Shown here one piece after another: positions 9,695-26,630 of a stretch of 32,000 bases of DNA. The notes under the pieces are model-generated. The model was not told where the DNA came from, ran no database searches, and saw only the letters and a program-made list of their open reading frames with translations. Location: NCBI RefSeq assembly GCF_000025945.1, contig NC_006138.1, positions 1,830,001 to 1,862,000 on the forward strand. Direction: 5' to 3'. The translations under genes were made by a program, and so were the position numbers. The stretch's first letter is position 1. Each line of letters begins with the position of its first letter. The DNA is from Desulfotalea psychrophila LSv54. GTDB taxonomy: Bacteria; Desulfobacterota; Desulfobulbia; Desulfobulbales; Desulfocapsaceae.

Positions 9695-10879
9695 TTATTT
9701 ATCCGCTTTGGTGGCTCGGCCAATATGACGGCCGTATTCTACACACTCTTTCAGTTGTTCCTCATGGGGGACGTATTTTATGCGCAAGCCATCGTCGATA
9801 CGCTTAATCTTCATCTCATCCATCATGGTGTTCAGTTGTTTGACGGCCTCTCCACCCCAGCCGTAGGAACCAAAGGCTGCACCTATTTTTTTTCGGGGTT
9901 TAAGTCCTTTCATATACATCAAAAAACTTGCCAAACTGGGCATGATGGCGTTATTGATGGTGGCACTTCCCAGGACGATGGTGCTTGCCGTAAGCAGCCT
10001 TTGCATAATGTCACCGCGATGACACTCTTTCAGGCTCATGAGGCGGGCGGGTACATTTTCCTCTTCTATACCCTGGGCGATAGCCTTTGCCATCATCTCC
10101 GTTGATTTCCATTTAGTATCATAGACAATGATGGCTTCGGGGTGCTGTTCCTGTTGGCTCCATCTGCGGTATCCCTCAAGAATCTCATCCTGTTGTTGCC
10201 GCCAGATAATACCATGGTCGGGGGCAATGAGGCGAAGATCCAGCTCCATCTTTTCCATGGTTTTGAGCAGCTTTTGCACAAGAGGTGAGAGAAGGGTGAG
10301 AGTGGTCGCATAAAAATGTTCCGCTGCATTTATGGCCTTGCCCGCCTCAAGTTCATCGTCAAATCGCTCCTCGGTGGCGATATGTTGGCCGAAGGCATCG
10401 TTGGAAAAGAGGATTCCGTCTTCCTTAAGATAGGAGAACATGGAGTCCGGCCAGTGGAGCATACGGGTTTCAATAAATTGAACACTGCGACTGCCGAGGG
10501 AGAGCTCTGTTCCTGTTTTTACCACCTGATAGGGCCAGTCTGTACGGTGATAATGAGCTATGATGGCCCGTTTGCCCATTTCCGAGCAGAAGAGCTTTTC
10601 GGGTTTGATAGCCTCCATGATCTCCGGCAGGGAGCTGGAGTGATCGGGTTCTACATGATTGACAATCAGGTAATCGATATCTGCAGGATCAATGATCTGT
10701 TTTATATGGTTAAAGAGTTGGTCGCGATGAGAGTGCTTAACCCCGTCTACCAGGGTGATTTTCTCGTCGATTATCAGGTAGGCATTGTAGCTGGTACCGG
10801 TATATCCGCTTGATGCTGGGATATCCCAGTCAATGGCGCCGACCCAGTAAATTCCTTTGGCAAGTTCGTTATTCTTGAT
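9695..10879 (-). CDS. Flavodiiron protein paralog 1 (ROO/FprA type); no canonical start codon at the homologous N-terminus, so possibly a pseudogene
   Basis: The track ORF (9695-10618) begins at a residue aligning with about residue 93 of the neighbouring paralog. My manual translation shows the same frame stays open up to the TAG at 10898-10900. It encodes IKNNELAKGIYWVGAIDWDIPASSGYTGTSYNAYLIIDEKITLVDGVKHSHRDQLFNHIKQIIDPADIDYLIVNHVEPDHSSSLPEIMEAIKPEKL, colinear with MNKNKLAKGIYWVGAVDWDV... of the paralog. The codon aligned to that Met is ATC (10877-10879). There is no ATG, GTG or TTG in frame between 10897 and 10619. Confidence 0.7.
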   Translation of the reverse strand: MKNNELAKGIYWVGAIDWDIPASSGYTGTSYNAYLIIDEKITLVDGVKHSHRDQLFNHIKQIIDPADIDYLIVNHVEPDHSSSLPEIMEAIKPEKLFCSEMGKRAIIAHYHRTDWPYQVVKTGTELSLGSRSVQFIETRMLHWPDSMFSYLKEDGILFSNDAFGQHIATEERFDDELEAGKAINAAEHFYATTLTLLSPLVQKLLKTMEKMELDLRLIAPDHGIIWRQQQDEILEGYRRWSQQEQHPEAIIVYDTKWKSTEMMAKAIAQGIEEENVPARLMSLKECHRGDIMQRLLTASTIVLGSATINNAIMPSLASFLMYMKGLKPRKKIGAAFGSYGWGGEAVKQLNTMMDEMKIKRIDDGLRIKYVPHEEQLKECVEYGRHIGRATKADK

Positions 10880-11062: not shown

Positions 11063-12265
11063 CTATTTTCCCTCTTCACTCGCGAGGATGCTCCGGCCAA
11101 GTTCACGACCATATTCACGACACTGGTCAAGGCTCTCCTCGGTGGGAACATATTTGAGGCGCAGACCATCATTTATCCGCTCTATTTTCATCTCATCCAT
11201 TATGGTGTTGAGTTGGGCCACTGCCTCGCCGCTCCAACCATAGGAGCCAAAGGCCGCCCCCAACTTTCTCGCCGGTTTCAGTCCCTTCATATAGCTCAAA
11301 AGCCCTGCCATACGAGGCAGGATGCCGTTGTTCAGGGTTGGGCTGCCAAGGATGAGGGCCCGGGCATCAAGCACTTTTGTTACCACATCACTGCGGTGAT
11401 GAACCTGCATATTGATAAGCTCTGCCGGTACACCCTCCTCTTCAAGTCCTATGGAGATGGACTTGGCCATCTCCTCGGTGGAGTGCCACATGCTGTCGTA
11501 GATTATCAGAGCCCTGTTAGAATGTTCCTGATTGCTCCATTTCTCGTAGGCGGCAAGGATTTTATCCTGGTGGCTACGCCAGATAAGGCCGTGGTCCGGG
11601 GCGATTATTTTTAAATCCAGGTCCATTTCTTTGATGGTGCGCAGCAACTTTCTTATCAGCGGGGAGAAGAGATTGAGGATGTTAGCATAGTATTTAGCGC
11701 TCTCCTGCATGATTTCGTCCAACTCAAGTTCATCGTCAAAACGTTCTGTACTGGCAAGATGTTGGCCAAAGGCGTCGCTGGTGAAGAGGATGCCATCTTC
11801 CTGTAGGTAGGAAAACATGGAGTCGGGCCAATGCAGCATTCGTGTTTCCAGAAACTGAACGGTGCGGGCCCCGAGGGAAATTTCATCGCCGGATTTTACT
11901 ATATGGTAGGGCCAGTCTTCCCTATGAAAGTGGGCGATCAGTGCCTTTTCTCCCATGGGTGAGCAGATGAGCTTTTCAGGTTGGACGATCTCCATCATCT
12001 TCGGTAGGGAGCCAGAGTGATCGAGTTCTACGTGGTTAACGACAATATAGTCAATCTCCTTTGGATCAATTATTTTTCCTATATTGTAGAGCAGTTGATC
12101 CATGTGGGAATGTTTCACGGTGTCAAAGAGGGTCACCTTTTCATCGATGACTAAAAAAGAGTTATAGGTTGATCCCCTATAGGTGGAGTATCCGTGAAAA
12201 TCCCGTACGTCCCAGTCAACTGCTCCTACCCAATATATGCCCTTGGCAAGTTTATTCTTATTCAT
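11063..12265 (-). CDS. Flavodiiron protein (rubredoxin:oxygen oxidoreductase / FprA family), full length
   Basis: 400 aa. Metallo-beta-lactamase-like domain with the diiron ligand motif NHVELDHSGS (H-x-E-x-D-H). C-terminal flavodoxin-like domain (ALIIYDSMWHSTEEMAKSI, LGSPTLNNG, GAAFGSYGWSGEA). Confidence 0.93.
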   Translation of the reverse strand: MNKNKLAKGIYWVGAVDWDVRDFHGYSTYRGSTYNSFLVIDEKVTLFDTVKHSHMDQLLYNIGKIIDPKEIDYIVVNHVELDHSGSLPKMMEIVQPEKLICSPMGEKALIAHFHREDWPYHIVKSGDEISLGARTVQFLETRMLHWPDSMFSYLQEDGILFTSDAFGQHLASTERFDDELELDEIMQESAKYYANILNLFSPLIRKLLRTIKEMDLDLKIIAPDHGLIWRSHQDKILAAYEKWSNQEHSNRALIIYDSMWHSTEEMAKSISIGLEEEGVPAELINMQVHHRSDVVTKVLDARALILGSPTLNNGILPRMAGLLSYMKGLKPARKLGAAFGSYGWSGEAVAQLNTIMDEMKIERINDGLRLKYVPTEESLDQCREYGRELGRSILASEEGK

Positions 12266-12905: not shown

Positions 12906-14642
12906 TTATTTTGATCTTGCCAGGAGTTTTTTTCTTCCCAGGATAGAGATGACGCTCAGAGAGAGCATAAGGCCTGCACCGACAAAAAAGAGGGGGCCCA
13001 TTTCTCCACTGAGGAGTGCTGGCAGTGAGTTAGAAAAGAGAATAAAGGCTGTACAGGCAGGTAGGATACCGAGGATGGTTGCCAGTAGATAGTGGTGGAA
13101 GCGAATGCCGGAGAGTCCGAGGGCATAGTTGAGCGGGGTAAAGGGAAAGAGTGGGATCAGTCGTAGGGCAAAGACTATTTTCCAACCATGTTTTTCGATC
13201 ATGGACTCGAGTTGTTCCCCTTGTCCTTTTCTAAAGAGACCTTTCATTTTGTTCTGTAGCCAATTCCCGGCGATGTATCTTGATACCAGAAAGGAGAGCG
13301 CCGCTCCAAGGCTTGCCCCTGTCATGGCATAGATGATACCCCATACATGGCCATAGAGGAGGCCTGCCACCATAACAAAGGGGAAGGCCGGCAGAAAGCA
13401 TACGGGAACCAGAGCCATAATGCTGATATAGAGCAGGGGGGAAAGGTTCTGCATGTGCAGGATGAGTAGCTCAAGGTGTTCCTTTTGCAGGAAATTGTCT
13501 ACTCCCTTGACCCTGAGGGTACAGGCGAGAGAGATGATGGTGATCAGTAGCGCGGCCTTAGCCCATGGGGTCTTGCTTGCTGTTGCGTGGTCTTTTTCTA
13601 AGCGTTTTTTAAGTAAGAAACGATGCAGATAGGTGAATGGAAAGGCTGTCTTTTGTTCTTTACCTGTGGCACAGCCCTCTTCGTCAAAGAGGATATCCAG
13701 CAGGTGGACGGTGGAAAAGTTCTTGCCGAGGCTGACTGAGCAACCTGCACAGTAGGTAATGATCTTTTCCCCGCCTGCCTCTCTTTCTCTCTTCTGCCAA
13801 CTCTCACGAAACCTGGGGGCAAGGCAGCTTACAGCTCCGCCCTCCCCGCAACAGATGGTCTTCTCCTTGCTATGAACGCTCTCTTTAATTTTCATGTTTT
13901 TGGGAAGTATTTCGCGCACAGCATTCTGTATCTCCACTGAAAAACGGGTGCTGCAGGCATCGTGGATGGAAAATGTCTGAGAAAAATTTCCCTTACAGAT
14001 GGGGGGGGACTCCCTGAGCTCTTCATAGATGGAAATGGTGTCGAAGCCCTGCCCATACTCTTTAAAGATACGGTAACAGCTCGGGCAGGCGGTGATGATT
14101 TTCTTGATGCCCTCTTCTCTGAGACGGCTTAAAAGTCGTTCGAGGGAGGAGGTAAAAAGGTCCTGTTTACCAAGATCGTGGGACGGCTTATGGCAACAGG
14201 CGAGGATAATACCAATGCTGGGATCTCTCTCTTGCAGGAAGTGGTAGGCTCGTTCGGTAACCCTGTCCCGGGTGGCGGCAAGGGCGCATCCGGGGAAGAA
14301 TATGGTGGAACACCCCTGCGGCAGATGCTCCAGACGAAGAAGCTTGCTGTCGCCCCAATTTTCGTAGGCAAGAATGCCCCTATGGGCAGGATTACCACCC
14401 TCTTTTTTTTGCACATCTTCTCGCATGGCAAGCACTGCCGCCGGCATATCCAGAGAGCAGGGACAGACTGCTTGGCAGAGTCCGCACATATTACAGAGAA
14501 AGGGGTCTACTCCATCTTTCCCCTCTTGTAGATAGGCCGTGCAAATTTCACCCGGAGTGCCTTTTTCCTGAAGAAAGAGACACTCTTTGAGGCAGATTTT
14601 ACATTCTATGCAGTGGTTGGCAATATCTTCTATTTTTTTCAT
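12906..14642 (-). CDS. Fusion protein: N-terminal 2x[4Fe-4S] plus two CCG cysteine-rich domains (HdrD/GlpC/LutA-like) and a C-terminal TVP38/TMEM64 (DedA-superfamily) membrane domain
   Basis: CIECKICLKEC and CNMCGLCQAVCP (CxxCxxCxxxC(P)). CCG domain 1: FFPGCALA...ACCHKP...ACPSCY. CCG domain 2: HDACSTRF...ICCGEGG...YCAGCS. Then about 5 TM helices with the TVP38/DedA signature VCFLPAFPFVMVAGLLYGHVWGIIYAMTGASLGAALSFLVSRY...RLIPLFPFTPLNYALGLSGI. Start taken at ATG 14642 (MKKIEDIANHC...); the track start at 14804 would overlap the upstream gene. Confidence 0.8.
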   Translation of the reverse strand: MKKIEDIANHCIECKICLKECLFLQEKGTPGEICTAYLQEGKDGVDPFLCNMCGLCQAVCPCSLDMPAAVLAMREDVQKKEGGNPAHRGILAYENWGDSKLLRLEHLPQGCSTIFFPGCALAATRDRVTERAYHFLQERDPSIGIILACCHKPSHDLGKQDLFTSSLERLLSRLREEGIKKIITACPSCYRIFKEYGQGFDTISIYEELRESPPICKGNFSQTFSIHDACSTRFSVEIQNAVREILPKNMKIKESVHSKEKTICCGEGGAVSCLAPRFRESWQKREREAGGEKIITYCAGCSVSLGKNFSTVHLLDILFDEEGCATGKEQKTAFPFTYLHRFLLKKRLEKDHATASKTPWAKAALLITIISLACTLRVKGVDNFLQKEHLELLILHMQNLSPLLYISIMALVPVCFLPAFPFVMVAGLLYGHVWGIIYAMTGASLGAALSFLVSRYIAGNWLQNKMKGLFRKGQGEQLESMIEKHGWKIVFALRLIPLFPFTPLNYALGLSGIRFHHYLLATILGILPACTAFILFSNSLPALLSGEMGPLFFVGAGLMLSLSVISILGRKKLLARSK

Positions 14643-14673
14643 GGAGAGTAGTAATGACAGAATTATCTGCCTC

Positions 14674-15345
14674 TTAGAGAGGGTTTGCCGTTTTTCTGTC
14701 TCGGTAAATTTTGCGTAGGAGCAGAGCCAGGACAGAGAAGGCAAAGAGGATAAAGAGGGCGGTGACAAAGGTCTTTGCCCCCCCCGTAAGCATCTCTCCT
14801 GCATAGGAATAGACCAGGGTCGCCGGAAGTTGGCCGATACCCGTTGCCCAGAGGAACTGCCAGAAGCTCATGGAGGTGAGTCCTGCCGCGTAGCTGACAA
14901 TATCAAAGGAGACAAAGGGCAGGAGGCGGGCGATGAGGATGGCATATTTGCCATGTCTTTCAAAAAAACCGTCCACTCCTTTCAGGGCCTCTTTTGAGGT
15001 CAGTTTTTCCACCATCTCTCGTCCTAGAAAACGGGCAATCCAGAAGCAGAGCAGGGCACCTGCCATGGCGCTTACCCAAGAGAGAATGGCTCCGTAGACC
15101 CAACCGAAGAGGGTGGCATTGGCAAAGGTAATGAGAAAGGCGGGCAGGGGGGCGATAATGGATTGAAAGATCATCAGGAGAAAGGAGACAATCGGTGCCC
15201 AGGGGCCAAAGCTAAGTATATAGCCTTTAATAGAGTCAAGGTCGTATATACTGAAGAGAAAGAAGACCTGCTCAATGCTCTGCCAGAAGGGGATGCACAG
15301 CAGGGTAATTATGGCGATAAAAATCAGTGGTTTGAATATCTTCAT
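14674..15345 (-). CDS. TVP38/TMEM64 family (DedA-superfamily, SNARE-associated) inner-membrane protein
   Basis: 223 aa, polytopic. IAPLPAFLITFANATLFGWVYGAILSWVSAMAGALLCFWIARFLGRE...RLLPFVSFDIVSYAAGLT. A paralog of the C-terminal domain of the downstream fusion gene. Confidence 0.85.
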   Translation of the reverse strand: MKIFKPLIFIAIITLLCIPFWQSIEQVFFLFSIYDLDSIKGYILSFGPWAPIVSFLLMIFQSIIAPLPAFLITFANATLFGWVYGAILSWVSAMAGALLCFWIARFLGREMVEKLTSKEALKGVDGFFERHGKYAILIARLLPFVSFDIVSYAAGLTSMSFWQFLWATGIGQLPATLVYSYAGEMLTGGAKTFVTALFILFAFSVLALLLRKIYRDRKTANPL

Positions 15346-15496
15346 CTTTTTTTTTCAGGCTAATGTTTTGGGCATGTTGATACATGCCGTAAATAACCTG
15401 CTGAACATATTGAGATGGGAGGGGAAAGTCCAATACTTATCTGCTATGTGGGAACGTGGACATATAGGGAATGCCTATGGCATGGCTCTGGGCAAA

Positions 15497-15587
15497 GGTA
15501 GAGACGTCGATTTATCGCGTCTCATCTGCGTTGCCGGCTACACCAGAGACGCGATAAATTACCCCACGGGTTTGTGAAATGGGTGAT
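15497..15587 (+). repeat. Dispersed palindromic repeat, copy A (hairpin modules only)
   Basis: GGTAGAGACGTCGATTTATCGCGTCTC-(22 nt)-GAGACGCGATAAATTACCCCACGGGTTTGTGAAATGGGTGAT. A 13-bp stem pairs TTTATCGCGTCTC (15511-15523) with GAGACGCGATAAA (15546-15558). Confidence 0.85.
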
Positions 15588-15867
15588 GTGGTGGGGGCGC
15601 AACACAAACCATCCATCAGGGTAATGCGTTAGGCGTTGCTTTTCTAAAATGAGGTTGGCACTCGAAAAACTGTCTCTGGTGCACACCCACCCCAGAGCAC
15701 CCATCACCAAGGGGAGGAGTTAGGTATTGCTCTATTGAACCACAATATGTCACTTGCAGCACATGAAAAACTAAATAGATTTTTGAGAGCAAACGGGGGC
15801 TACAGGATTTAATAGCGCCCGATTCAACAACGGGTTTTGTCATGAAAAATGGAGCTGGCCTTAAGGC

Positions 15868-15904: not shown

Positions 15905-15969
15905 GCCAGCCCACCCACATAGCCACAACTGCCCTCTGCCCCTATCCTAAAAAAGGGCTTTGTCCAAAT

Positions 15970-16077
15970 GTAGAGACGTCGACTCATCTGCGTTGCCGGT
16001 TACACCGGAGACGCGATAAATCACCCCACGGGTTTGTGAAATGGGTGATCTTCAAGCAGTGGTTAACTGTTTTTTCT
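15970..16077 (+). repeat. Dispersed palindromic repeat, copy B (10-bp deletion of the left hairpin arm; carries the tail module)
   Basis: GTAGAGACGTCGA[deletion]CTCATCTGCGTTGCCGGTTACACCGGAGACGCGATAAATCACCCCACGGGTTTGTGAAATGGGTGATCTTCAAGCAGTGGTTAACTGTTTTTTCT. Continues directly into the heptamer array. Confidence 0.85.
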
Positions 16078-16126
16078 GATAGCTGATAGCTGATAGCTGA
16101 TAGCTGATAGCTGATAGCTGATAGCT
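16078..16126 (+). repeat. Perfect heptanucleotide microsatellite (GATAGCT)x7
   Basis: Seven exact units counted base by base from 16078 to 16126. The array ends 1 nt before the TAA (16128-16130) that closes the extended methyltransferase frame. Confidence 0.95.
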
Positions 16127-16127
16127 G

Positions 16128-16903
16128 TTATTTGTCAGCCTGGGCACTAAAGAGGGCACCGGCGGTGTAGGCAGAGGTCGTCACCCCTGTATCCCCGACA
16201 TAGCAAATGTTACAAAATCCCGCTTCAAGCATATACTCTATTTGGTCTCCTACAGAGACCGCGCCGCCTATTCAGTTTGACCAGGCGGCTGCTCCCTTCA
16301 TCTCCGTGGGCAGTTTTTTCCGCAGAACAATATCAGCAAACTGTAGCTTTCCTTGTGGCTTGAGTACGCGAAACACCTCGGCGAAGAGGAGTGTCTTTTG
16401 CAAGGAGAGGTTGAATACGCCATTGGAGATGACCAGATCAAAGGAGTTATCGGCAAAGGGCAAGACCTCATCTTTGCTGGTCAGAGCCCGGCAGTTCTTC
16501 AGGCCCAGCCTCTTAAAATTGTTATTTGCCAGCTTTACCATCTCCGCATTGAGATCCACTCCGTAGATCTTTGCCGTCTTGCCCAGGGTCTTGCTGGCAA
16601 TAATCATATCCAGACCACTACCACAACCAATGTCGAGGAGGCTCTTGTTTTTGGATGTGTCCGGCAGAAAAGGATTTCCCACCCCGCAAAAAGAGTCGAT
16701 AATCTCCTTTGGCAGTTCCTGATAAAGAGTCTCGTTGTAGTCGTGCAACAGTAGCCCGGCCCCTCCCGTAGGGTAGGAGAAAAATCCTTCAGGTGATTTT
16801 AGGGCAACCTTGGTGAATTTTTCCTGGATACTGGCCTGAATATCAGCTCTCTCCTGTGTCGCGAGAGTCTTTTGTTGTTTTTCCTGGTTCGGATAAGGTT
16901 CAT
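16128..16903 (-). CDS. ArsM/UbiE-like SAM-dependent methyltransferase; candidate selenoprotein (in-frame TGA at 16272-16274) with an apparent 1-nt frame problem near its 5' end
   Basis: Core ORF 16272-16748: FCGVGNPF, LLDIGCGSGLDMIIAS (SAM motif I), YGVDLNAEMV, FDLVISNGVFNL, VLKPQGKLQFADIV. After ...GAAAWSN-TGA the same frame continues for 47 codons: IGGAVSVGDQIEYMLEAGFCNICYVGDTGVTTSAYTAGALFSAQADK-TAA. From memory, this matches the ArsM-type ...W..C-I-G-G-A...AGF C-terminus, with TGA at the Cys position. Upstream, the frame is open to 16937 with family-like sequence (ERADIQASIQEKFTKVALKSPEGFFSYPTGGAG), but the only RBS-linked ATG (16901-16903) is offset by one base. Confidence 0.6.
16244..16260 (-). 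other. SECIS-like hairpin 11 nt downstream of the in-frame UGA
   Basis: The mRNA reads UGA-AUAGGCGGCGC-GGUCUC-UGUAG-GAGACC: a 6-bp perfect stem and a 5-nt apical loop containing GU. The spacing fits the bacterial SECIS geometry known from E. coli fdhF. Confidence 0.45.
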
Positions 16904-17022
16904 GACTCCTGCTTCCAGCAGGAACTATTGTCGGGCTTCAACCAGATGAACATGTATTGATTGGCATCATATCTCTCTAAAAGGTTTTGCCCCAGCACAC
17001 CTCTCTCGCCAAGGGGAGGTTT

Positions 17023-17155
17023 GGTAGAGACGTCGATTTATCGCGTCTCATTTGCACTGGAGGGTATATCGGAGACGCGATAAATTACCCCACGGGTTTG
17101 TAAATGGGGTGATCTTGAAGCAGTGGTTAACTGTTTTTTCTGACAGCTGATAGCT
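17023..17155 (+). repeat. Dispersed palindromic repeat, copy C (full length: both hairpin modules plus the tail module)
   Basis: GGTAGAGACGTCGATTTATCGCGTCTCATTTGCACTGGAGGGTATATCGGAGACGCGATAAATTACCCCACGGGTTTGTAAATGGGGTGATCTTGAAGCAGTGGTTAACTGTTTTTTCTGACAGCTGATAGCT. Ends 10 nt from the reconstructed HAD stop codon (17166-17168). Confidence 0.85.
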
Positions 17156-17165
17156 CCGCGCGGCC

Positions 17166-17810
17166 TTAAAAGGCACGCAAAAAAGCTTCGTCAACCTGAT
17201 CAAGATCTGTGATGAGCCGATCTGCCTGGCAAAAATCATGGTCCTTGGTGTAGGCGTTGGGGGGATGGCAATGCCCACCATTCCGGCATTCTTTGCCGCC
17301 AGCAGGCCGGGGCCGGAATCTTCAAAGGCCATGGCCTTTGCTGGTACTACTCCGAGCCTGGCACAGCTTGTTAGATAAATTTCGGGATGGGGTTTTCGTT
17401 CACTGACCATATCTCCACCGATGATCTCTTGAAAATATTTCAGTATCCATGACCTCAAGGATTTTACGCACCTCCTTTTCATGGGAGGAGGAGGCGAGGG
17501 CCAGAATCTTTCGTCGTAAAACCGCTCTAAAATTTCTCTGGCTCCCTGGCAGAGGCTGATTTGGGGAATAAGCCCCTATATAAACATCCTGTTTCTCCCT
17601 TATCAGATCCGTCTGAGATATTTGCCAGTTGCGGCTGCTGATATAGTCTGTTGCCACCTTTTCGTTGCTGGTGCCAATATAGGTCTCGAAGAGATCAAAG
17701 GTAAAGGGGCCTGCTCCATGCTTTTCCAGAATCTCCTTCCAGGCCATAAAATGGAGCTCTTCGCTATTTACCAGGGTGCCATCAAGGTCAAAGACCAGGG
17801 CTTCTATCAT
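17166..17810 (-). pseudogene. HAD-superfamily hydrolase (beta-phosphoglucomutase/phosphatase-like, subfamily IA) interrupted by two compensating frameshifts
   Basis: Frame a: MIEALVFDLDGTLVNSE (DxDGT motif I)...ILALASSSHEKEVRKILEVM. Frame b (about 17447 to 17262): ILKYFQEIIGGDMVSERKPHPEIYL...AFEDSGPGLLAAKNAGMVGIAIP. Back in frame a after the G6/C6 run at 17259-17264: NAYTKDHDFCQADRLITDLDQVDEAFLRAF-TAA (17166-17168). The track shows this gene as two overlapping ORFs, 17400-17810 and 17048-17482. Confidence 0.8.
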
Positions 17811-19951: not shown

Positions 19952-20017
19952 GAAGAATCGGGCTGGATCGGAAGAAGAATCGGGCGGGGTCGAAAAGAAA
20001 ATGAGGCTGGATCTAAT
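19952..20017 (+). repeat. Three tandem 22-bp repeats
   Basis: GAAGAATCGGGCTGGATCGGAA / GAAGAATCGGGCGGGGTCGAAA / AGAAAATGAGGCTGGATCTAAT. Confidence 0.75.
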
Positions 20018-23243: not shown

Positions 23244-26200
23244 TTACTTGATGAGAGAGAGAGCCATCTGCGGTGCCTGCTTAGCCTGAGCAAGAATAGA
23301 AACACCTGCCTGCTGCAGGATGTTCTGCTTGGTCATCTCTGAAGTCTCTTTAGCGATATCGGTATCAAGGATACGAGAACGAGCCGCAGAGAGGTTTTCA
23401 GAAACGTTGTTAAGATTACTGATGGTGGAGGTGAAACGGTTCTGAACCGCACCGAGCTTACCACGCATCTGATCAATATCCATCAGGGCCTCATCAACAG
23501 AGGTGATGGCAGTGTTGGCAGAATCACGGGTGAGGATGTCCAGCTTGTCGATGGTGGTGCTACCGTTACCGATATTGTTAAGACCTGCCTCTTTAAGACC
23601 AGAACCGGTGAGGGTTACGTCAACGGGGCTGTCGATCTCTACCTGGCCGACAAACTTCTTGGCTGCGTTATCTACCCCGACAAGACCATCGGTGATAACC
23701 CCATCATCTTTGGTATCGCCATCCTTGTCAACCATCTCGGTGATCTTGAAGGAGCTACCGTCGTTGCGGCTCACCTGCAACTGTCCGTCCTCGTCCACCT
23801 TGGCAGAGAACTTCGCGGTGGTAGCGGCATCGGAGTTGATAGCTGTTGCCACATCTTCTGCAGTGACGTGACCATCGCGCTTGGCAGAACTCATATCGAC
23901 CTTGAACTCAGTACCATCGTCTCCGGTCAGGGTCAGATTATAGTCACCCACAACACCCGGATCAACCCGACCCGCCTCAAGACCCGCCTTGCTGGGATCA
24001 TCACCGGCGATGATTATAGAGGTATCGCTCTCCAGGCTGACAGTACCACGGAGATCACGGCCATCTGCCACAGTGTCAGCAAGGCCAATCTTGTTAGCAG
24101 CAGCTTCCTTGCTGTCAATGTCTTCGTTGAGGGTGAAGTTGGAACCACCGGCCTTGGTAATGATAATGTTGCCGGTTTCCTTGTCATCCTTATCAAGTTC
24201 AGCTATTGCACTGAAACCATCGGCATTTTTGTTGATGGCAGCGATAACATTTTGGGAGGTAACACTATGGGTGTCATCGTCGGTGCTTACTGCATCGTCG
24301 CCTGCATCCAAAGTGGTCGCTACGGCAATTTCAGCCCCGCCAATCTGCAGGGTATAGCTGCCATCGGCCCCGAGTTTTACCTCGTCAAATTTAACAGTCT
24401 GGCTGTTGGTGGCGGTGGCCGTAATATCGGCATCGGTCTTCTGGATCTGGGCGGCAATAGCTGCTGCATCACCCTCCACTGCCCCAACATCCTCACCGTT
24501 GATGGTCAGATCACCGGCATTAAGTGGACCGGTTACTGAGCTCTCACCACCGGTGCTTGCAACATTCCCAACAATAGGAGCTGGTACCTCATATACACCC
24601 GCCACAAGGCCATCGCCAACTTTAATATCAGCACCAGCACCCATGGCAATGGTTACATCGCTGTCATTGGCGATGGTAACATTTACAGCCGTTGCCGCAT
24701 AATCTACACCGGCCCCACCAACACCTTCTACCAAACCAGCAACAGAAGTAAGAGCAGTATCTGCACCACTACCGTCAGCCTTATTATTAGTGAATTCTGT
24801 AAGGTTAAATGTTGCCCCATCTTTACTCTCAATTACAAGATTACCCGTTGTTACATCAACAGAAGCCTTAAACTCCTCTGTCTCTTTGAACGTCTCATTG
24901 ATTGCAGCAGCAACATCGCCAGCGTCAACCTCACTATCTACATCACCACCAATGATAACATTTGCTGCAACACCACCATCTGTCTCAAGAGTTAATTTAT
25001 AGGACGCATCTACTGCCAAAGTGACATCAGCTGCCCACGCCAAACTCTGCTTATTCTCAAGAGAGGCTGTTACTCCTTCAACTGCTGCTGTATTAATAGC
25101 GTCGACAAGAGTTGCTTTTTCGGCATCAAGAGTGATAATCTCTTCACCACCAATGGTCAGATCACCGGACACAAGTGTGTCCGTTGGCACTGCAGTCATG
25201 ATGGTTGGCGCAGTTGGGTCAACCGCAGGGGCAGGAGGAGCCTCGGTATTGTATGTAGCTCCTGCATAACTGTCCAAAGCTACTGCACCAGCAGTAGTGG
25301 TTTCAACCACAATGTCTTGCTCACCGGAGAAAGTAAGGTCCACTCCATTTGCTTTCTGCAAAACAGCAGTAGCAGTTGGTAGTGCCGTGAATCCTCCAGC
25401 TAAGACACTAGCTCCGTCAGTTTGAGTTTGTTTTATATTAAACGCCTTCCCATCCTCAGACGTAATGGTAATCTCAGTACCAGCAACATTTTTTACGGCA
25501 CTATACCCGGCAATATCGTCAAATGCAGCTATAACATCATCTACACTAGCATTGTCGGTACCTGTAGCAACGTCTACACTTATTGGGTTTGCATCTGCAG
25601 CATCGCTTATCGTTAACTTCATACCTGAACTTGAGGTCGTAACACCCCAAGCCAAAACTGTGCTGTTGGTCGTTTCTGCAGTAACACCATCAATGTCACT
25701 TATTGCTGCTGCAAGGGCGGTGGCATCACCTTTAGCTATTAGGTTCAAGTCAGTAATTGCCGCCGCGGCTTCAGCACCAATTTTAAGATCATCCACAGCA
25801 AATGTAGTTGCATCTGTAGTGTCTGTAATAGCCAAAGAGACAGTTGTATTCTCGCGAGCAAGAGGGGCTGCCTCGTCAGTCTTAGGCCCGGTAATAGAGA
25901 GATTTACCGTGTTAAAATCAAAGCTTTGGTTATTAACGGCCTTGGCCTCAACCGAGGAGTCGGCAGCAGAGATGGCTGCAGCCAGCTCCTTATTGTTGGT
26001 GGCGGCACCCACATCATTGCCGTTTACCTGAATGGTGCCAGCGGCCACGGAACCGGTCATGGTGCTGCCGGTTATGCCGTTACCAGCGGGGGCGTCAAGA
26101 CTACGACCGTCCTGACTGAGGTCAGCGCCCTTGCTACTCTCAATACTAAAGGAGATGGTTTGGTTTTTACCGGCATTGGAACCTACCTGAAAGGTTGCAT

Positions 26201-26630
26201 CCTGCAGGGTGCCGTCGAGTACCTTCTTACCATTGAATTCGGTGGTATCGGCAATACGATCCAGCTCACTCTTCAGCTGCTGTACCTCATCGTTCAGGGA
26301 TGCACGATCGGAACCGGTGTTGGTATCGTTGGAAGATTGAACAGCCAATTCACGAATACGTTGCAGGATATTGGTGGATTCTTGCAGAGCACCCTCAGCG
26401 GTTTGCGCCATGGAAATACCATCGTTGGCATTTCGGGTTGCCTGATTAAGGCCACGCACCTGCGAGGTCATTCGATCGGAAATTGCCAGTCCAGCAGCAT
26501 CATCCTTGGCACTGTTAATACGCAGACCAGAGGAGAGTCTCTCCATGGAGGTGCCGAGAGAACCCTGAGATTTGTTTAAATTACGTTGAGCGTTGAGAGA
26601 TGCAACATTGGTATTAATGGAAAGAGCCAT
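23244..26630 (-). CDS. fliC: Giant flagellin (1128 aa) with conserved N and C flagellin domains and a modular central region of about 900 aa
   Basis: N-terminus: [55 protein letters not shown]-terminus: [69 protein letters not shown]. The centre is Cys-free and rich in A, T, D, G and V, with recurring motifs of the Flagellin-IN type. Confidence 0.93.

What the first reader, a model, noticed from the sequence alone, without database searches (positions are those of the whole stretch)
16128..16274. In-frame TGA at the conserved Cys of an ArsM-like methyltransferase, with a SECIS-like hairpin: candidate selenoprotein
The annotated ORF stops at TGA (16272-16274) after ...KGAAAWSN. The same frame then runs 47 more codons to TAA (16128-16130), encoding IGGAVSVGDQIEYMLEAGFCNICY... 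As I remember ArsM-family alignments, the C-terminus has ...W..C-(I/V)-x-G-A followed by an AGF motif, so the TGA sits where the catalytic third cysteine is expected. Eleven nt after the UGA the mRNA forms GGUCUC-UGUAG-GAGACC, with GU in the apical loop, compatible with a bacterial SECIS. Desulfobacterota are selenoprotein-rich, and selenoproteome surveys have, to my recollection, reported Sec-containing methyltransferases. The alternative is a TGC/TGT to TGA nonsense mutation in a decaying gene, given that its 5' end is also irregular.
Basis: partly seen in the sequence, partly recalled or inferred. Interest (0 to 1): 0.8.

Follow-up and report, generated by a model that had tools for sequence, protein, structure and literature searches.

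The report
Unannotated two-selenocysteine ArsM-like methyltransferase gene
What databases list as a short methyltransferase fragment in Desulfotalea psychrophila is most likely an intact 280-residue enzyme whose two in-frame TGA codons each encode selenocysteine, a design shared by dozens of anaerobes and mis-annotated in most of them.

Summary
TGA 16272-16274 (minus strand) aligns with Cys224 of the crystallised arsenite methyltransferase CmArsM. All 80 related loci fetched have TGA at this column. In each, the protein sequence continues in frame and is conserved after it. Two homologs carry Cys there instead. The 17-nt hairpin 11 nt after the UGA is kept in all 72 distinct sequences aligned (99.3% of cells paired). 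Compensatory changes occur at codon positions the protein does not constrain. The Cys homologs lack the hairpin.

The "irregular 5' end" is not decay. It is a second in-frame TGA (16938-16940), ten codons after an ATG at 16968-16970, followed by its own hairpin. Fifty-seven of the 80 loci have the same short Met leader plus TGA. The gene is therefore 16128-16970: 280 residues, with Sec at 11 and 233.

Selenocysteine-containing ArsM-type enzymes are already known (Fomenko 2007; three NCBIfam fusion families). None of the curated models I scanned covers the N-terminal Sec leader, and the public record (CAG36381.1) is a 158-residue fragment. The family lacks the Cys174 arsenic ligand and scores below the ArsM model cut-off, so arsenite as substrate is unproven.

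The parts
16128..16970 (-). Full coding sequence as re-interpreted: 280 codons plus TAA, with selenocysteine at codons 11 and 233. It belongs to the ArsM/UbiE-like SAM-dependent methyltransferases.
   Evidence: A continuous frame runs from ATG 16970 to TAA 16128, interrupted only by two TGA codons. Pfam Methyltransf_31/11/25 match. The best NCBIfam matches are three ArsM-type selenoprotein models. P0002 (L082) has the same length (280) with TGA at codons 14 and 232.
16965..16970 (-). ATG ATG, the likely start codon(s). An in-frame TAG lies 2 codons upstream (16977-16979).
   Evidence: Sequence and upstream translation (..F*RDMMPINTCSSG*SPT..). Which of the two ATGs is used is not determined, and the upstream AGAGAG is only a weak Shine-Dalgarno match.
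16938..16940 (-). First in-frame TGA (codon 11), proposed Sec; context C-S-S-G-U-S-P.
   Evidence: 57 of 80 loci have a Met leader of about 7-14 codons, then TGA, then [PGAS]-P. No canonical start codon follows for 64 codons, although homology to the family N-terminus (IRxxIxxKYxxVA...YPTG) lies in that stretch.
16905..16925 (-). Hairpin after the first TGA: GUUCCUGCU-GGA-AGCAGGAGU, candidate SECIS 1. The out-of-frame ATG 16901-16903 overlaps its 3' arm.
   Evidence: Folded. A contiguous hairpin 10-26 nt after this TGA is present in 49 of 58 family members, against 45 of 232 control segments of the same genes. RNAalifold on 34 same-register members gives one helix in which 5 of 6 pairs show compensatory change. 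The window's copy alone is not significant (z = -0.52).
16671..16691 (-). Invariant FCGVGNP motif. Its Cys lies two residues before the position of CmArsM Cys72 (FYGCGS).
   Evidence: Invariant columns C54-F60 in alignment A1; alignment to 5eg5/4kw7.
16608..16637 (-). SAM-binding glycine-rich motif LDIGCGSGLD.
   Evidence: Invariant L71 D72 I73 G74 G76 G78 D80 in A1; Pfam methyltransferase domains.
16272..16274 (-). Second in-frame TGA (codon 233), proposed Sec; context W-S-N-U-I-G-G (the UxxG motif). It aligns with Cys224 of CmArsM.
   Evidence: PDB alignment. TGA at this column in 80 of 80 loci. Cys in P0008 and P0016. Database proteins end one residue before it.
16244..16260 (-). 17-nt hairpin GGUCUC-UGUAG-GAGACC, 11 nt after the second UGA: SECIS 2.
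   Evidence: In alignment A2, columns 15-20 pair with 26-31 and 99.3% of cells are paired. Pair 16-30 is AU 41 / GC 24 / GU 7; pair 19-27 is CG 46 / UA 21 / UG 4. G22 in the loop is invariant. RNAalifold finds the same helix independently. The helix is absent from the Cys homologs.
16128..16130 (-). True stop codon TAA.
   Evidence: The C-terminus ...YTAGALFSAQADK ends where the homologs end (...YT.GALFRARK..*).
16272..16748 (-). The fragment annotated in public records: TTG start, 158 aa, ending at the second TGA.
   Evidence: P0001 = CAG36381.1 / WP_011188893.1 / Q6AMP4.

Best explanation
The locus encodes one intact 280-residue SAM-dependent methyltransferase of the ArsM/AS3MT superfamily. 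Its mRNA carries two UGA codons that are decoded as selenocysteine. Each UGA is followed at 11-15 nt by a short stem-loop with G in the apical loop. By analogy with the E. coli fdhF system, the Sec-specific elongation factor SelB would bind this stem-loop and deliver Sec-tRNA(Sec) to the ribosome (inferred, not shown here). Sec233 occupies the position of the arsenic-binding Cys224 of CmArsM. Sec11 sits, with Cys7, in a short N-terminal leader. I infer that the two Sec residues, probably with the invariant Cys of FCGVGNP, form the site that binds a soft metalloid or metal (or the redox site). That site would stand in for the canonical four-cysteine site, whose Cys174 is Gly in this whole family. 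The methyl acceptor is unknown. Arsenite is the default guess from homology, but other soft metal(loid)s are not excluded. Shown here: the two TGAs, their conservation, the Cys/Sec pairing at codon 233, the two conserved hairpins and the methyltransferase fold. Inferred: actual Sec insertion, the role of the N-terminal Sec, and the substrate.
For: The TGA at codon 233 aligns with CmArsM Cys224. All 80 related loci from many lineages (Desulfobulbales, Nitrospirota, Methylomirabilis, Brocadia, Geobacter, Bacillus benzoevorans) have TGA there, followed by conserved in-frame coding sequence. Cys replaces it in P0008 and P0016. For hairpin 2, 99.3% of cells are paired and 47 cells changed on both sides, against 17.5 +/- 3.2 in shuffles; sliding the partners drops pairing to 70% or less. 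The covarying bases are a Val/Ile first codon position paired with an Asp third position, and a Ser/Pro first position paired with a Gly/Arg third position. The Ala third position is fixed as G in 69 of 72 sequences. These are constraints the protein cannot explain. RNAalifold gives the same helix. For codon 11, the same leader plus TGA architecture occurs in 57 of 80 loci. A hairpin follows in 49 of 58 members, against 19% of controls, with compensatory changes. P0002 has TGA at codons 14 and 232 and is also 280 aa long. The window has no canonical start codon for 64 codons after the first TGA, although conserved N-terminal sequence lies there. The window protein keeps every invariant residue of the family. 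The best curated matches are three ArsM-type selenoprotein models. D. psychrophila is a known Sec user with 12 listed selenoproteins, including SelD (PMC1794560). The locus is syntenic in a Desulfotalea MAG, which has both TGAs.
Against: There is no experimental evidence of Sec insertion. Neither hairpin in the window is significant on its own (z = -0.27 and -0.52). The window's N-terminal motif (C-S-S-G-U-S-P) departs from the commoner G-x-U-P-P, and its hairpin is shifted by one register relative to the family consensus. The Shine-Dalgarno match before ATG 16970 is weak. The subset used was picked by me for a common register. Sec machinery genes are not in the window, so their presence rests on the literature. 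The neighbouring HAD gene carries a frameshift, which shows that this stretch of sequence is not free of lesions or errors. The protein scores below the ArsM model cut-off (154 against 263 bits) and lacks Cys174, so arsenite methylation is not established.
Confidence: 0.8

Rival explanations
1. The protein has a single Sec. Only the TGA at codon 233 is recoded. The upstream TGA (16938-16940) is an ordinary stop of a tiny upstream ORF, and translation starts downstream at a non-canonical codon, for example ATT 16839-16841, which lies 9 nt behind AGGAG.
For: AGGAGA precedes ATT 16839-16841 at a good spacing. About a quarter of the related loci lack the N-terminal leader and start just before IRxxIxxKY. 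Several database entries start after the first TGA. The window's leader motif is atypical.
Against: ATT starts are very rare. An ATT start would remove about 20 residues that resemble homolog N-termini (PNQEKQQKTLATQER against KNQLDPEAFSEEEK). The same leader-TGA-[PGAS]P arrangement in 57 loci, with a hairpin in 84% of members against 19% of controls, is hard to explain if the TGA is a plain stop. P0002 shows the same design.
Confidence: 0.13
2. The gene is decaying. One or both TGAs are nonsense mutations of Cys codons, and the 5' end has been damaged by a frameshift near ATG 16903.
For: The neighbouring HAD gene is split by a frameshift, and repeat elements flank the gene. ATG 16903 followed by one extra A would read MKPYPNQ, which resembles P0062 MKPKNQ.
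Against: TGA occurs at the same column in 80 of 80 loci, and at the N-terminal position in 57 loci, from many phyla. This cannot be recurrent nonsense mutation. Coding conservation continues after both TGAs. All family-invariant residues are intact in the window. The frame is uninterrupted from ATG 16970, so no frameshift needs to be assumed.
Confidence: 0.03
3. The product is truncated. Translation terminates at TGA 16272, and the 158-232-residue product is the functional protein, as annotated.
For: This is how NCBI, JGI and other pipelines call nearly all members.
Against: The 47 codons after the TGA are conserved at the protein level in all loci, including the AGF and TS.YT.GA motifs that belong to the ArsM fold. 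A conserved RNA hairpin with covariation sits exactly where a SECIS is expected. The Cys homologs read straight through.
Confidence: 0.03

Closest known systems
Selenocysteine-containing arsenite methyltransferase (Fomenko et al. 2007, Science 315:387). Listed as 'Arsenite methyltransferase, NF008823, UxxG, 1 Sec, WP_011987699.1' among experimentally verified families in PMC13188914 Table 1, and in PMC9312934.
   Same: Same superfamily and the same Sec position: a UxxG motif at the Cys224 (CmArsM) / Cys206 (AS3MT) column.
   Different: The window protein scores 154 bits against the 263-bit cut-off of NF008823. It has Gly at the Cys174 position. It carries a second Sec in an N-terminal leader, whereas the listed family has one Sec.
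NCBIfam 'exception' models NF047649 (methyltransferase/UXPK-star double selenoprotein), NF041537 (ArsM/AhpD domain selenoprotein) and NF041536 (ArsM/DUF2284 domain selenoprotein). PMC13188914 attributes them to Haft & Tolstoy 2025.
   Same: These are the closest curated relatives of the methyltransferase body (233-245 bits over about 243 residues). They have the same UxxG Sec and carry more than one Sec per protein.
   Different: Their extra Sec residues lie in C-terminal additions (a UXPK tail, AhpD, DUF2284) that the window protein lacks. The matches cover only profile positions about 3-247, and the scores are about half the cut-offs. None of these models covers window residues 1-33, where Sec11 lies.
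Canonical Cys-type ArsM/AS3MT (CmArsM structures 4FR0, 4KW7, 5EG5).
   Same: The Rossmann SAM-binding fold, and the C-terminal C/U-x-G-G-A ... AGF segment.
   Different: Sec replaces Cys224. Cys174 is absent (ISNGV against ISNCV). The Cys72 equivalent is shifted by two residues (FCGVG against FYGCG). The protein is much shorter (280 against about 380 residues) and lacks the C-terminal domain.
Bacterial SECIS elements of the E. coli fdhF type. From my own knowledge: the minimal element is a 17-nt upper stem-loop placed 11 nt after the UGA (Liu et al. 1998), and the bSECIS consensus requires G in the apical loop (Zhang & Gladyshev 2005).
   Same: Hairpin 2 is 17 nt long, starts 11 nt after the UGA, and has an invariant G followed by U or G in the loop. 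Hairpin 1 is similar, at 12-15 nt from the UGA.
   Different: Both hairpins are short (6-9 bp), have no bulged U, and lie entirely within conserved coding sequence. SelB binding was not tested.

Membership tests
Bacterial selenoprotein gene | The in-frame UGA aligns with Cys in non-Sec homologs (a Sec/Cys pair). | tested here: met
   For codon 233: P0008 has TGT and P0016 has TGC at the same column, and CmArsM has Cys224. For codon 11: no clear Cys counterpart was found; the Cys homologs lack the leader.
Bacterial selenoprotein gene | The UGA is conserved in orthologs, and coding conservation continues downstream. | tested here: met
   80 of 80 loci for codon 233. 57 of 80 loci for the N-terminal TGA.
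Bacterial selenoprotein gene | A SECIS stem-loop lies immediately downstream of the UGA, supported by covariation. | tested here: met
   Hairpin 2: 99.3% of cells paired, 3 of 6 pairs with compensatory changes, 0 of 500 shuffles reaching the observed covariation. Hairpin 1: present in 49 of 58 members against 45 of 232 controls, and 5 of 6 pairs compensatory in a chosen subset. bSECISearch itself was not available.
Bacterial selenoprotein gene | The genome encodes selA, selB, selC (tRNA-Sec) and selD. | not testable with these tools
   None of these is in the window: no tRNA, and no matching Pfam domains in the ORFs scanned. The literature lists D. psychrophila with 12 selenoproteins, including SelD (PMC1794560).
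Bacterial selenoprotein gene | Selenium incorporation demonstrated (75Se labelling or mass spectrometry). | not testable with these tools
   An experiment is required.
Arsenite methyltransferase ArsM (NCBIfam NF008823 / PRK11873) | Whole-protein score reaches the curated cut-off. | tested here: not met
   154.4 bits against a cut-off of 263; 147.9 bits without the leader.
Arsenite methyltransferase ArsM (NCBIfam NF008823 / PRK11873) | As(III)-binding Cys174 and Cys224 (CmArsM numbering). | tested here: not met
   The Cys224 column holds Sec (acceptable), but the Cys174 column is Gly, invariant in the family (ISNGV).
Arsenite methyltransferase ArsM (NCBIfam NF008823 / PRK11873) | N-terminal Cys44 and Cys72, needed for the methylation cycle. 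| tested here: inconclusive
   The invariant Cys of FCGVGNP lies two residues before the Cys72 column. No Cys occupies the Cys44 region. An N-terminal Cys7/Sec11 pair exists, but at a different place in the sequence.
Arsenite methyltransferase ArsM (NCBIfam NF008823 / PRK11873) | SAM-dependent Rossmann methyltransferase domain. | tested here: met
   Pfam Methyltransf_31 at 5e-27, Methyltransf_11 and Methyltransf_25; the DIGCGxG motif is invariant.
NF047649 methyltransferase/UXPK-star double selenoprotein | Cut-off score, and a C-terminal tail ending U-x-P-K-stop. | tested here: not met
   233 bits against 460. The match covers profile positions 3-246 of 283. The window protein ends ...SAQADK-TAA with no further TGA.
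NF041537 / NF041536 ArsM-AhpD and ArsM-DUF2284 selenoproteins | Cut-off score, and the C-terminal AhpD or DUF2284 domain. | tested here: not met
   245 bits against 510, and 227 against 575. Only profile positions about 4-247 match, and no C-terminal domain is present.

The most novel reading that the evidence does not exclude
The N-terminal leader (Met, a few residues, often Cys, then U-[P/G/A/S]-P) together with the UxGG Sec may define a two-selenocysteine ArsM-like family that has not been described. In this reading a mobile N-terminal Sec arm and the active-site Sec form a selenium-based (diselenide or selenenyl-sulfide) substrate-binding or redox pair that replaces the Cys44/Cys72/Cys174/Cys224 chemistry of ArsM, possibly for a substrate other than arsenite. 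The family is widespread in anaerobes (Desulfobulbales, Nitrospirota and others), and the database records I examined for it were either truncated calls or had TGA read as Trp.
Probability: 0.35. Interest if true: 0.65.

Novelty: new variant of a known kind. Interest (0 to 1): 0.55.

Why it matters
Three points.

1. Annotation. It corrects a protein in a reference sulfate reducer from a 158-residue fragment to a 280-residue protein with two Sec residues. That adds a selenoprotein to the 12 listed for D. psychrophila. Most of the 120 best database hits have lengths and coverage that fit the same truncation, which was confirmed for all ten truncated sequences aligned, so the family is largely invisible to annotation-based surveys of selenium use or arsM diversity.

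2. Biochemistry. Sec sits at the metalloid-binding position of an ArsM-type enzyme, with a second Sec on an N-terminal arm and the Cys174 ligand missing. This is a natural experiment on how selenium changes metal(loid) methylation chemistry. It bears on anaerobic arsenic methylation in sediments and paddy soils, where Desulfobulbales and Nitrospirota are common.

3. Method. The two short SECIS hairpins with clean covariation give ready-made patterns for finding and correctly calling these genes.

Tried and rejected
- Frameshift at ATG 16903. I first thought the 5' end was a 1-nt deletion after ATG 16903 (ATG AAA CCT.. = MKPYPNQ, compare P0062 MKPKNQ). I dropped this once translation further upstream showed an uninterrupted frame from ATG 16970 through a TGA, an arrangement shared by 57 loci.
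- ATT start at 16839-16841. This is kept only as a minor rival.
- Single-sequence folding of both hairpins gave no significant z-scores. Only the comparative analysis was informative.
- Rfam at gathering thresholds found nothing in the window, and ARAGORN found no tRNA or tRNA-Sec.
- The promoter/terminator scan around the gene was uninformative: 3 promoter-like sites, all on the wrong strand, and no terminators.
- Gene-neighbourhood analysis of the 80 loci gave no strongly conserved partner. The best was a heavy-metal P-type ATPase in 8 loci, then Rrf2 in 6, ArsR in 4 and VTT/DedA in 4. Context therefore hints only weakly at metal handling.
- I tried to read Haft & Tolstoy 2025 (PMC12013261) to check whether the N-terminal Sec form or 'MduS' is this family, but the paper is not held.
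- 'W' at the Sec columns in P0002, P0003 and P0009 is not a Trp variant. In P0002 both W residues are TGA codons. I infer that the gene caller used a genetic code that reads TGA as Trp.
- No structure prediction was run, because the tool returns no coordinates, so distances between residues could not be measured.
Full report
**1. The observation**

On the minus strand the ORF reads ...LPTEMKGAAAWSN and then TGA at 16272-16274. The same frame continues for 47 codons (IGGAVSVGDQIEYMLEAGFCNICYVGDTGVTTSAYTAGALFSAQADK) to TAA at 16128-16130. Eleven nucleotides after the UGA lies GGUCUC-UGUAG-GAGACC (16260-16244). The ORF lister gives only a 158-codon ORF, from a TTG at 16748 to this TGA. That is exactly the public protein CAG36381.1 / WP_011188893.1 / Q6AMP4 of Desulfotalea psychrophila LSv54, which lies on a contig of 3,523,383 bp. 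The window therefore comes from that chromosome. The hairpin folded alone is unremarkable: z = -0.27, and 71 of 200 shuffles fold at least as well.

**2. What the protein is**

Pfam finds a class I SAM-dependent methyltransferase domain (Methyltransf_31 at 5e-27, plus Methyltransf_11 and _25). The best NCBIfam matches are three curated selenoprotein models:
- NF041537, ArsM/AhpD;
- NF047649, methyltransferase/UXPK-star;
- NF041536, ArsM/DUF2284.

All three match only through their shared methyltransferase body (profile positions about 3-247), at roughly half their cut-off scores. The general arsenite methyltransferase model NF008823 scores 148-154 bits against a cut-off of 263.

Against solved structures, the best hits are the arsenic methyltransferase CmArsM entries 5EG5, 4KW7 and 4FR0. 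The alignment places the TGA on Cys224 (ilyGEC-LGGALYLEDFRRLVAEAGF against aawSNx-IGGAVSVGDQIEYMLEAGF). It also shows Gly where CmArsM has Cys174 (ISNGVFNL against ISNCVCNL), and a Cys two residues before Cys72 (FCGVG against FYGCG).

**3. Comparative test of the TGA at codon 233**

A search of 5.8 billion proteins returned 1952 relatives. Most of the best 120 are 190-225 residues long and cover only 71-80% of the query. In the alignment, all ten truncated sequences included end exactly one residue before the TGA column (...E[AS]W[SA][QND]). P0008 and P0016 have Cys at the column (..NW[CF]Q-C-IGGA). P0002, P0003 and P0009 have Trp there. For P0002 I checked the DNA: both of its Trp residues are TGA codons, read as Trp by the gene caller.

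A scan of one genome per species returned 80 loci. They come from:
- Desulfobulbales and Desulfocapsaceae;
- Nitrospirota and Thermodesulfovibrionia;
- Methylomirabilis and Brocadia;
- Geobacter and Desulfuromonas;
- Bacillus benzoevorans;
- a Desulfotalea MAG.

All 80 have TGA at this column. In every one it is followed in frame by conserved IGGA[IV][PS]V[RG]DQ..L...AGF...G.TG..TS.YT.GA, ending about where the window's protein ends. Recurrent nonsense mutation cannot produce this pattern.

**4. The hairpin after codon 233**

Seventy-two distinct sequences (TGA plus 47 nt) align without gaps. Columns 15-20 pair with columns 26-31 in 99.3% of cells. Pair 16-30 is A-U in 41 sequences, G-C in 24 and G-U in 7. 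Pair 19-27 is C-G in 46, U-A in 21 and U-G in 4.

Forty-seven cells have changes on both sides, against 17.5 +/- 3.2 in shuffles (0 of 500 shuffles reach the observed value). Sliding the 3' partners by one to three columns drops pairing to 22-70%. RNAalifold predicts the same helix unprompted.

The covarying bases are the first base of a Val/Ile codon paired with the third base of an Asp codon, and the first base of a Ser/Pro codon paired with the third base of a Gly/Arg codon. The third base of the preceding Ala codon is G in 69 of 72 sequences. These constraints act on the RNA, not on the protein. The loop has an invariant G followed by U or G.

The element is 17 nt long and starts 11 nt after the UGA. 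From my own knowledge, that matches the geometry of the minimal E. coli fdhF SECIS. The two Cys-encoding homologs (L081 with TGC, L083 with TGT) have no helix at these columns.

**5. The 5' end is a second Sec codon**

The gene frame is open upstream of the TTG and shows family homology there (ADIQASIQEKFTKVA..FSYPTGGAG against IRxxIxxKYxxVA..FxYPTGKAGA). Yet it contains no ATG, GTG or TTG for 64 codons, and ATG 16903 is out of frame.

Extending the frame further upstream gives ATG ATG (16970-16965) CCA ATC AAT ACA TGT TCA TCT GGT TGA (16940-16938) AGC CCG..., which reads MMPINTCSSG-U-SPTIVPAGSRSHEPYPNQ.... An in-frame TAG lies two codons before the first ATG.

The same design, a Met leader of about 7-14 codons, then TGA, then [P/G/A/S]-P, is present in 57 of the 80 loci. 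Examples are MTDKNVCFLGAGG-U-PPKNN, MIEKQVCNLKTGN-U-GPPKV and MTDNKSC-U-PPAKV, the last in the Desulfotalea MAG. P0002 has TGA at codons 14 and 232 and is 280 residues long, as is the window protein with TGA at codons 11 and 233.

A contiguous hairpin starts 10-26 nt after this TGA in 49 of 58 members, against 45 of 232 control segments taken from the same genes. In the window it is GUUCCUGCU-GGA-AGCAGGAGU (16925-16905). The out-of-frame ATG 16901-16903 overlaps its 3' arm.

RNAalifold on 34 members that share one register gives a six-pair helix with a GGUC-type loop, and five of the six pairs show compensatory changes. I chose that subset myself, and the window's copy is offset by one position, so this result is weaker than the one in section 4. 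The peptide encoded across this hairpin differs between lineages (DGRQ, GGHQ, SGSL; PAGSRS in the window) while the structure is kept. That argues for an RNA element.

About a quarter of the loci, and both Cys homologs, lack the leader and start just before IRxxIxxKY. One-Sec and two-Sec forms therefore coexist in the family.

**6. Integrity and context**

The window protein keeps every invariant and near-invariant residue of the family alignment, and its C-terminus has normal length. A Desulfotalea MAG (L068) has the same gene order: rubrerythrin, a 260-residue methyltransferase, a HAD hydrolase, then the Sec methyltransferase.

The window differs from L068 in two ways:
- its HAD gene is split into two frames (17400-17810 and 17048-17482, covering Pfam profile positions 2-118 and 118-177);
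- a repeat of about 150 nt lies between the HAD gene and the Sec gene, with further copies downstream.

The rest of the window is ordinary chromosome: cdaA, glmM, grpE, dnaK, trpS, flavodiiron proteins, fliS, fliD, flagellin and dnaE. It contains no Sec machinery and no tRNA.

Zhang et al. 2006 list D. psychrophila as a Sec user with 12 selenoproteins: SelD, FdhA x4, GlpC, Prx-like, SelW-like, FrhA, FrhD, HdrA and ArsC-like. No methyltransferase is among them (PMC1794560). The two early stop-codon surveys I checked, which cover this genome, do not list it either.

**7. Function**

What is shown is a SAM-dependent methyltransferase fold with Sec at the position of the metalloid-binding Cys224. 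The rest is inferred. Cys174 is Gly throughout the family and the ArsM model cut-off is not reached. The binding site must therefore be built differently, most plausibly from Sec233, the invariant Cys of FCGVGNP, and the N-terminal Cys7/Sec11 arm.

Neighbourhoods are not conserved. The commonest neighbours hint weakly at metal handling: a divergent heavy-metal P-type ATPase in 8 of 80 loci, Rrf2 and ArsR regulators, and VTT/DedA membrane proteins in 4 loci as well as in the window. Arsenite is the default candidate substrate, and I hold that with low confidence.

**8. Relation to what is known**

Sec-containing arsenite methyltransferase is an established selenoprotein family with a UxxG motif and one Sec. 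It is credited to Fomenko et al. 2007 and listed in PMC9312934 and PMC13188914. The three ArsM-type multi-Sec fusion families have NCBIfam models, which PMC13188914 attributes to Haft & Tolstoy 2025.

The N-terminal Sec leader is not covered by any NCBIfam model in release 20.0: there is no match to residues 1-33. None of the five full-length sequences among the 120 best hits (P0002, P0003, P0008, P0009, P0016) is named as a selenoprotein by its source. I could not read Haft & Tolstoy 2025 to rule out prior description. In particular, I could not check 'MduS', a two-Sec methyltransferase listed with a CxxU motif, which does not fit this family's motifs. On that basis I rate this a new variant of a known kind.

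**9. Verdict**

- The selenoprotein interpretation is supported and extended to two Sec codons.
- The pseudogene alternative is rejected.
- Confidence that codon 233 is Sec is about 0.93; that codon 11 is also Sec, about 0.8.
- The substrate is undetermined.

Noticed in passing
window 15484-15629, 15956-16091, 17010-17155: Three copies of a repeat of about 110-150 nt (71-87% identical) flank the Sec gene. One lies between the HAD gene and the Sec gene; two lie downstream. Each contains a 14-bp inverted repeat (ATTTATCGCGTCTC ... GAGACGCGATAAAT), and the middle copy has a 10-nt deletion in it. There is no Rfam match. The syntenic Desulfotalea MAG (L068) has no such element between the HAD and Sec genes. 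This could be a MITE- or REP-like intergenic element.
   Followed up: partly
window 16076-16127: A perfect heptamer tandem repeat (CTGATAG x 7.4 on the plus strand; CAGCUAU in the mRNA sense) starts immediately after the TAA stop of the Sec gene. The copy of the flanking repeat at 17133-17160 has only about two units at the same end, so the array looks like a local expansion of the end of the repeat.
   Followed up: partly
window 17048-17810 (minus strand): The HAD-family hydrolase gene is split into two overlapping frames (17400-17810 covers Pfam HAD_2 positions 2-118; 17048-17482 covers 118-177). The break falls around ..KILEVMD / ILKYFQEIIGGDMV... The ortholog in L068 is an intact 212-residue ORF. 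This is either a real frameshift or a sequencing error. The tail of the second ORF runs into the repeat element.
   Followed up: partly
window 12906-14804 and 14674-15345 (minus strand): Downstream of the Sec gene lie a fusion ORF (4Fe-4S dicluster + CCG cysteine-rich domain + VTT/DedA membrane domain, 632 aa as listed) and a separate VTT-domain protein. The 632-aa ORF overlaps the upstream gene by 130 nt, so its real start is probably the internal MKKIEDIANHC. VTT/DedA genes also lie next to the Sec methyltransferase in 4 of the 80 related loci, and a CCG-domain gene lies near the Cys homolog in L081.
   Followed up: partly
window 9695-10618 (minus strand), next to 11063-12265: There are two flavodiiron-type ORFs (ODP metallo-beta-lactamase + flavodoxin). 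The shorter one matches the ODP profile only from position 67, so it may be N-terminally truncated, or its start may have been missed.
   Followed up: no
window 23244-26630 (minus strand): An unusually long flagellin (1128 aa) with normal N- and C-terminal flagellin domains and a central region of about 900 residues that matches no Pfam family at 1e-5.
   Followed up: no
loci L002, L004, L007, L008, L012, L017 (N-terminal leaders): In several Desulfopila-like members the leader reads C-D-L-K-[TSA]-G-x-U. As I remember it, this resembles the D-L-K-T-S-A-C(44) motif of CmArsM and D-L-Q-T-N-G-C(32) of human AS3MT. In this family, however, it lies before the IRxxIxxKY helix rather than after it. 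It could be chance, or a relocated equivalent of the N-terminal catalytic Cys.
   Followed up: no
P0009 (418 aa, JGI metagenome): An ArsM-AhpD fusion homolog with Trp at the Sec column (..SWFR-W-EGGA) and in the AhpD motif (GCEP-W-TQYC). By analogy with P0002, these are probably TGA codons read as Trp. That would match the multi-Sec NF041537 family. The DNA was not checked.
   Followed up: no
L042 (Geobacter sp. MAG), upstream of the gene: At the position of the N-terminal Sec this locus reads ..TTPV-S-PPSSGAGGCCQ.., with Ser where relatives such as L079 have ..GSV-U-APSSGTGGCCQ... A Cys-Cys pair follows a few residues later in both. The contig is short, and the start of the gene is unclear.
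   Followed up: no
window 19952-20013: An imperfect 22-nt tandem repeat (2.8 copies, 78% matches) in the intergenic region between the rubrerythrin gene and the fliS side.
   Followed up: no
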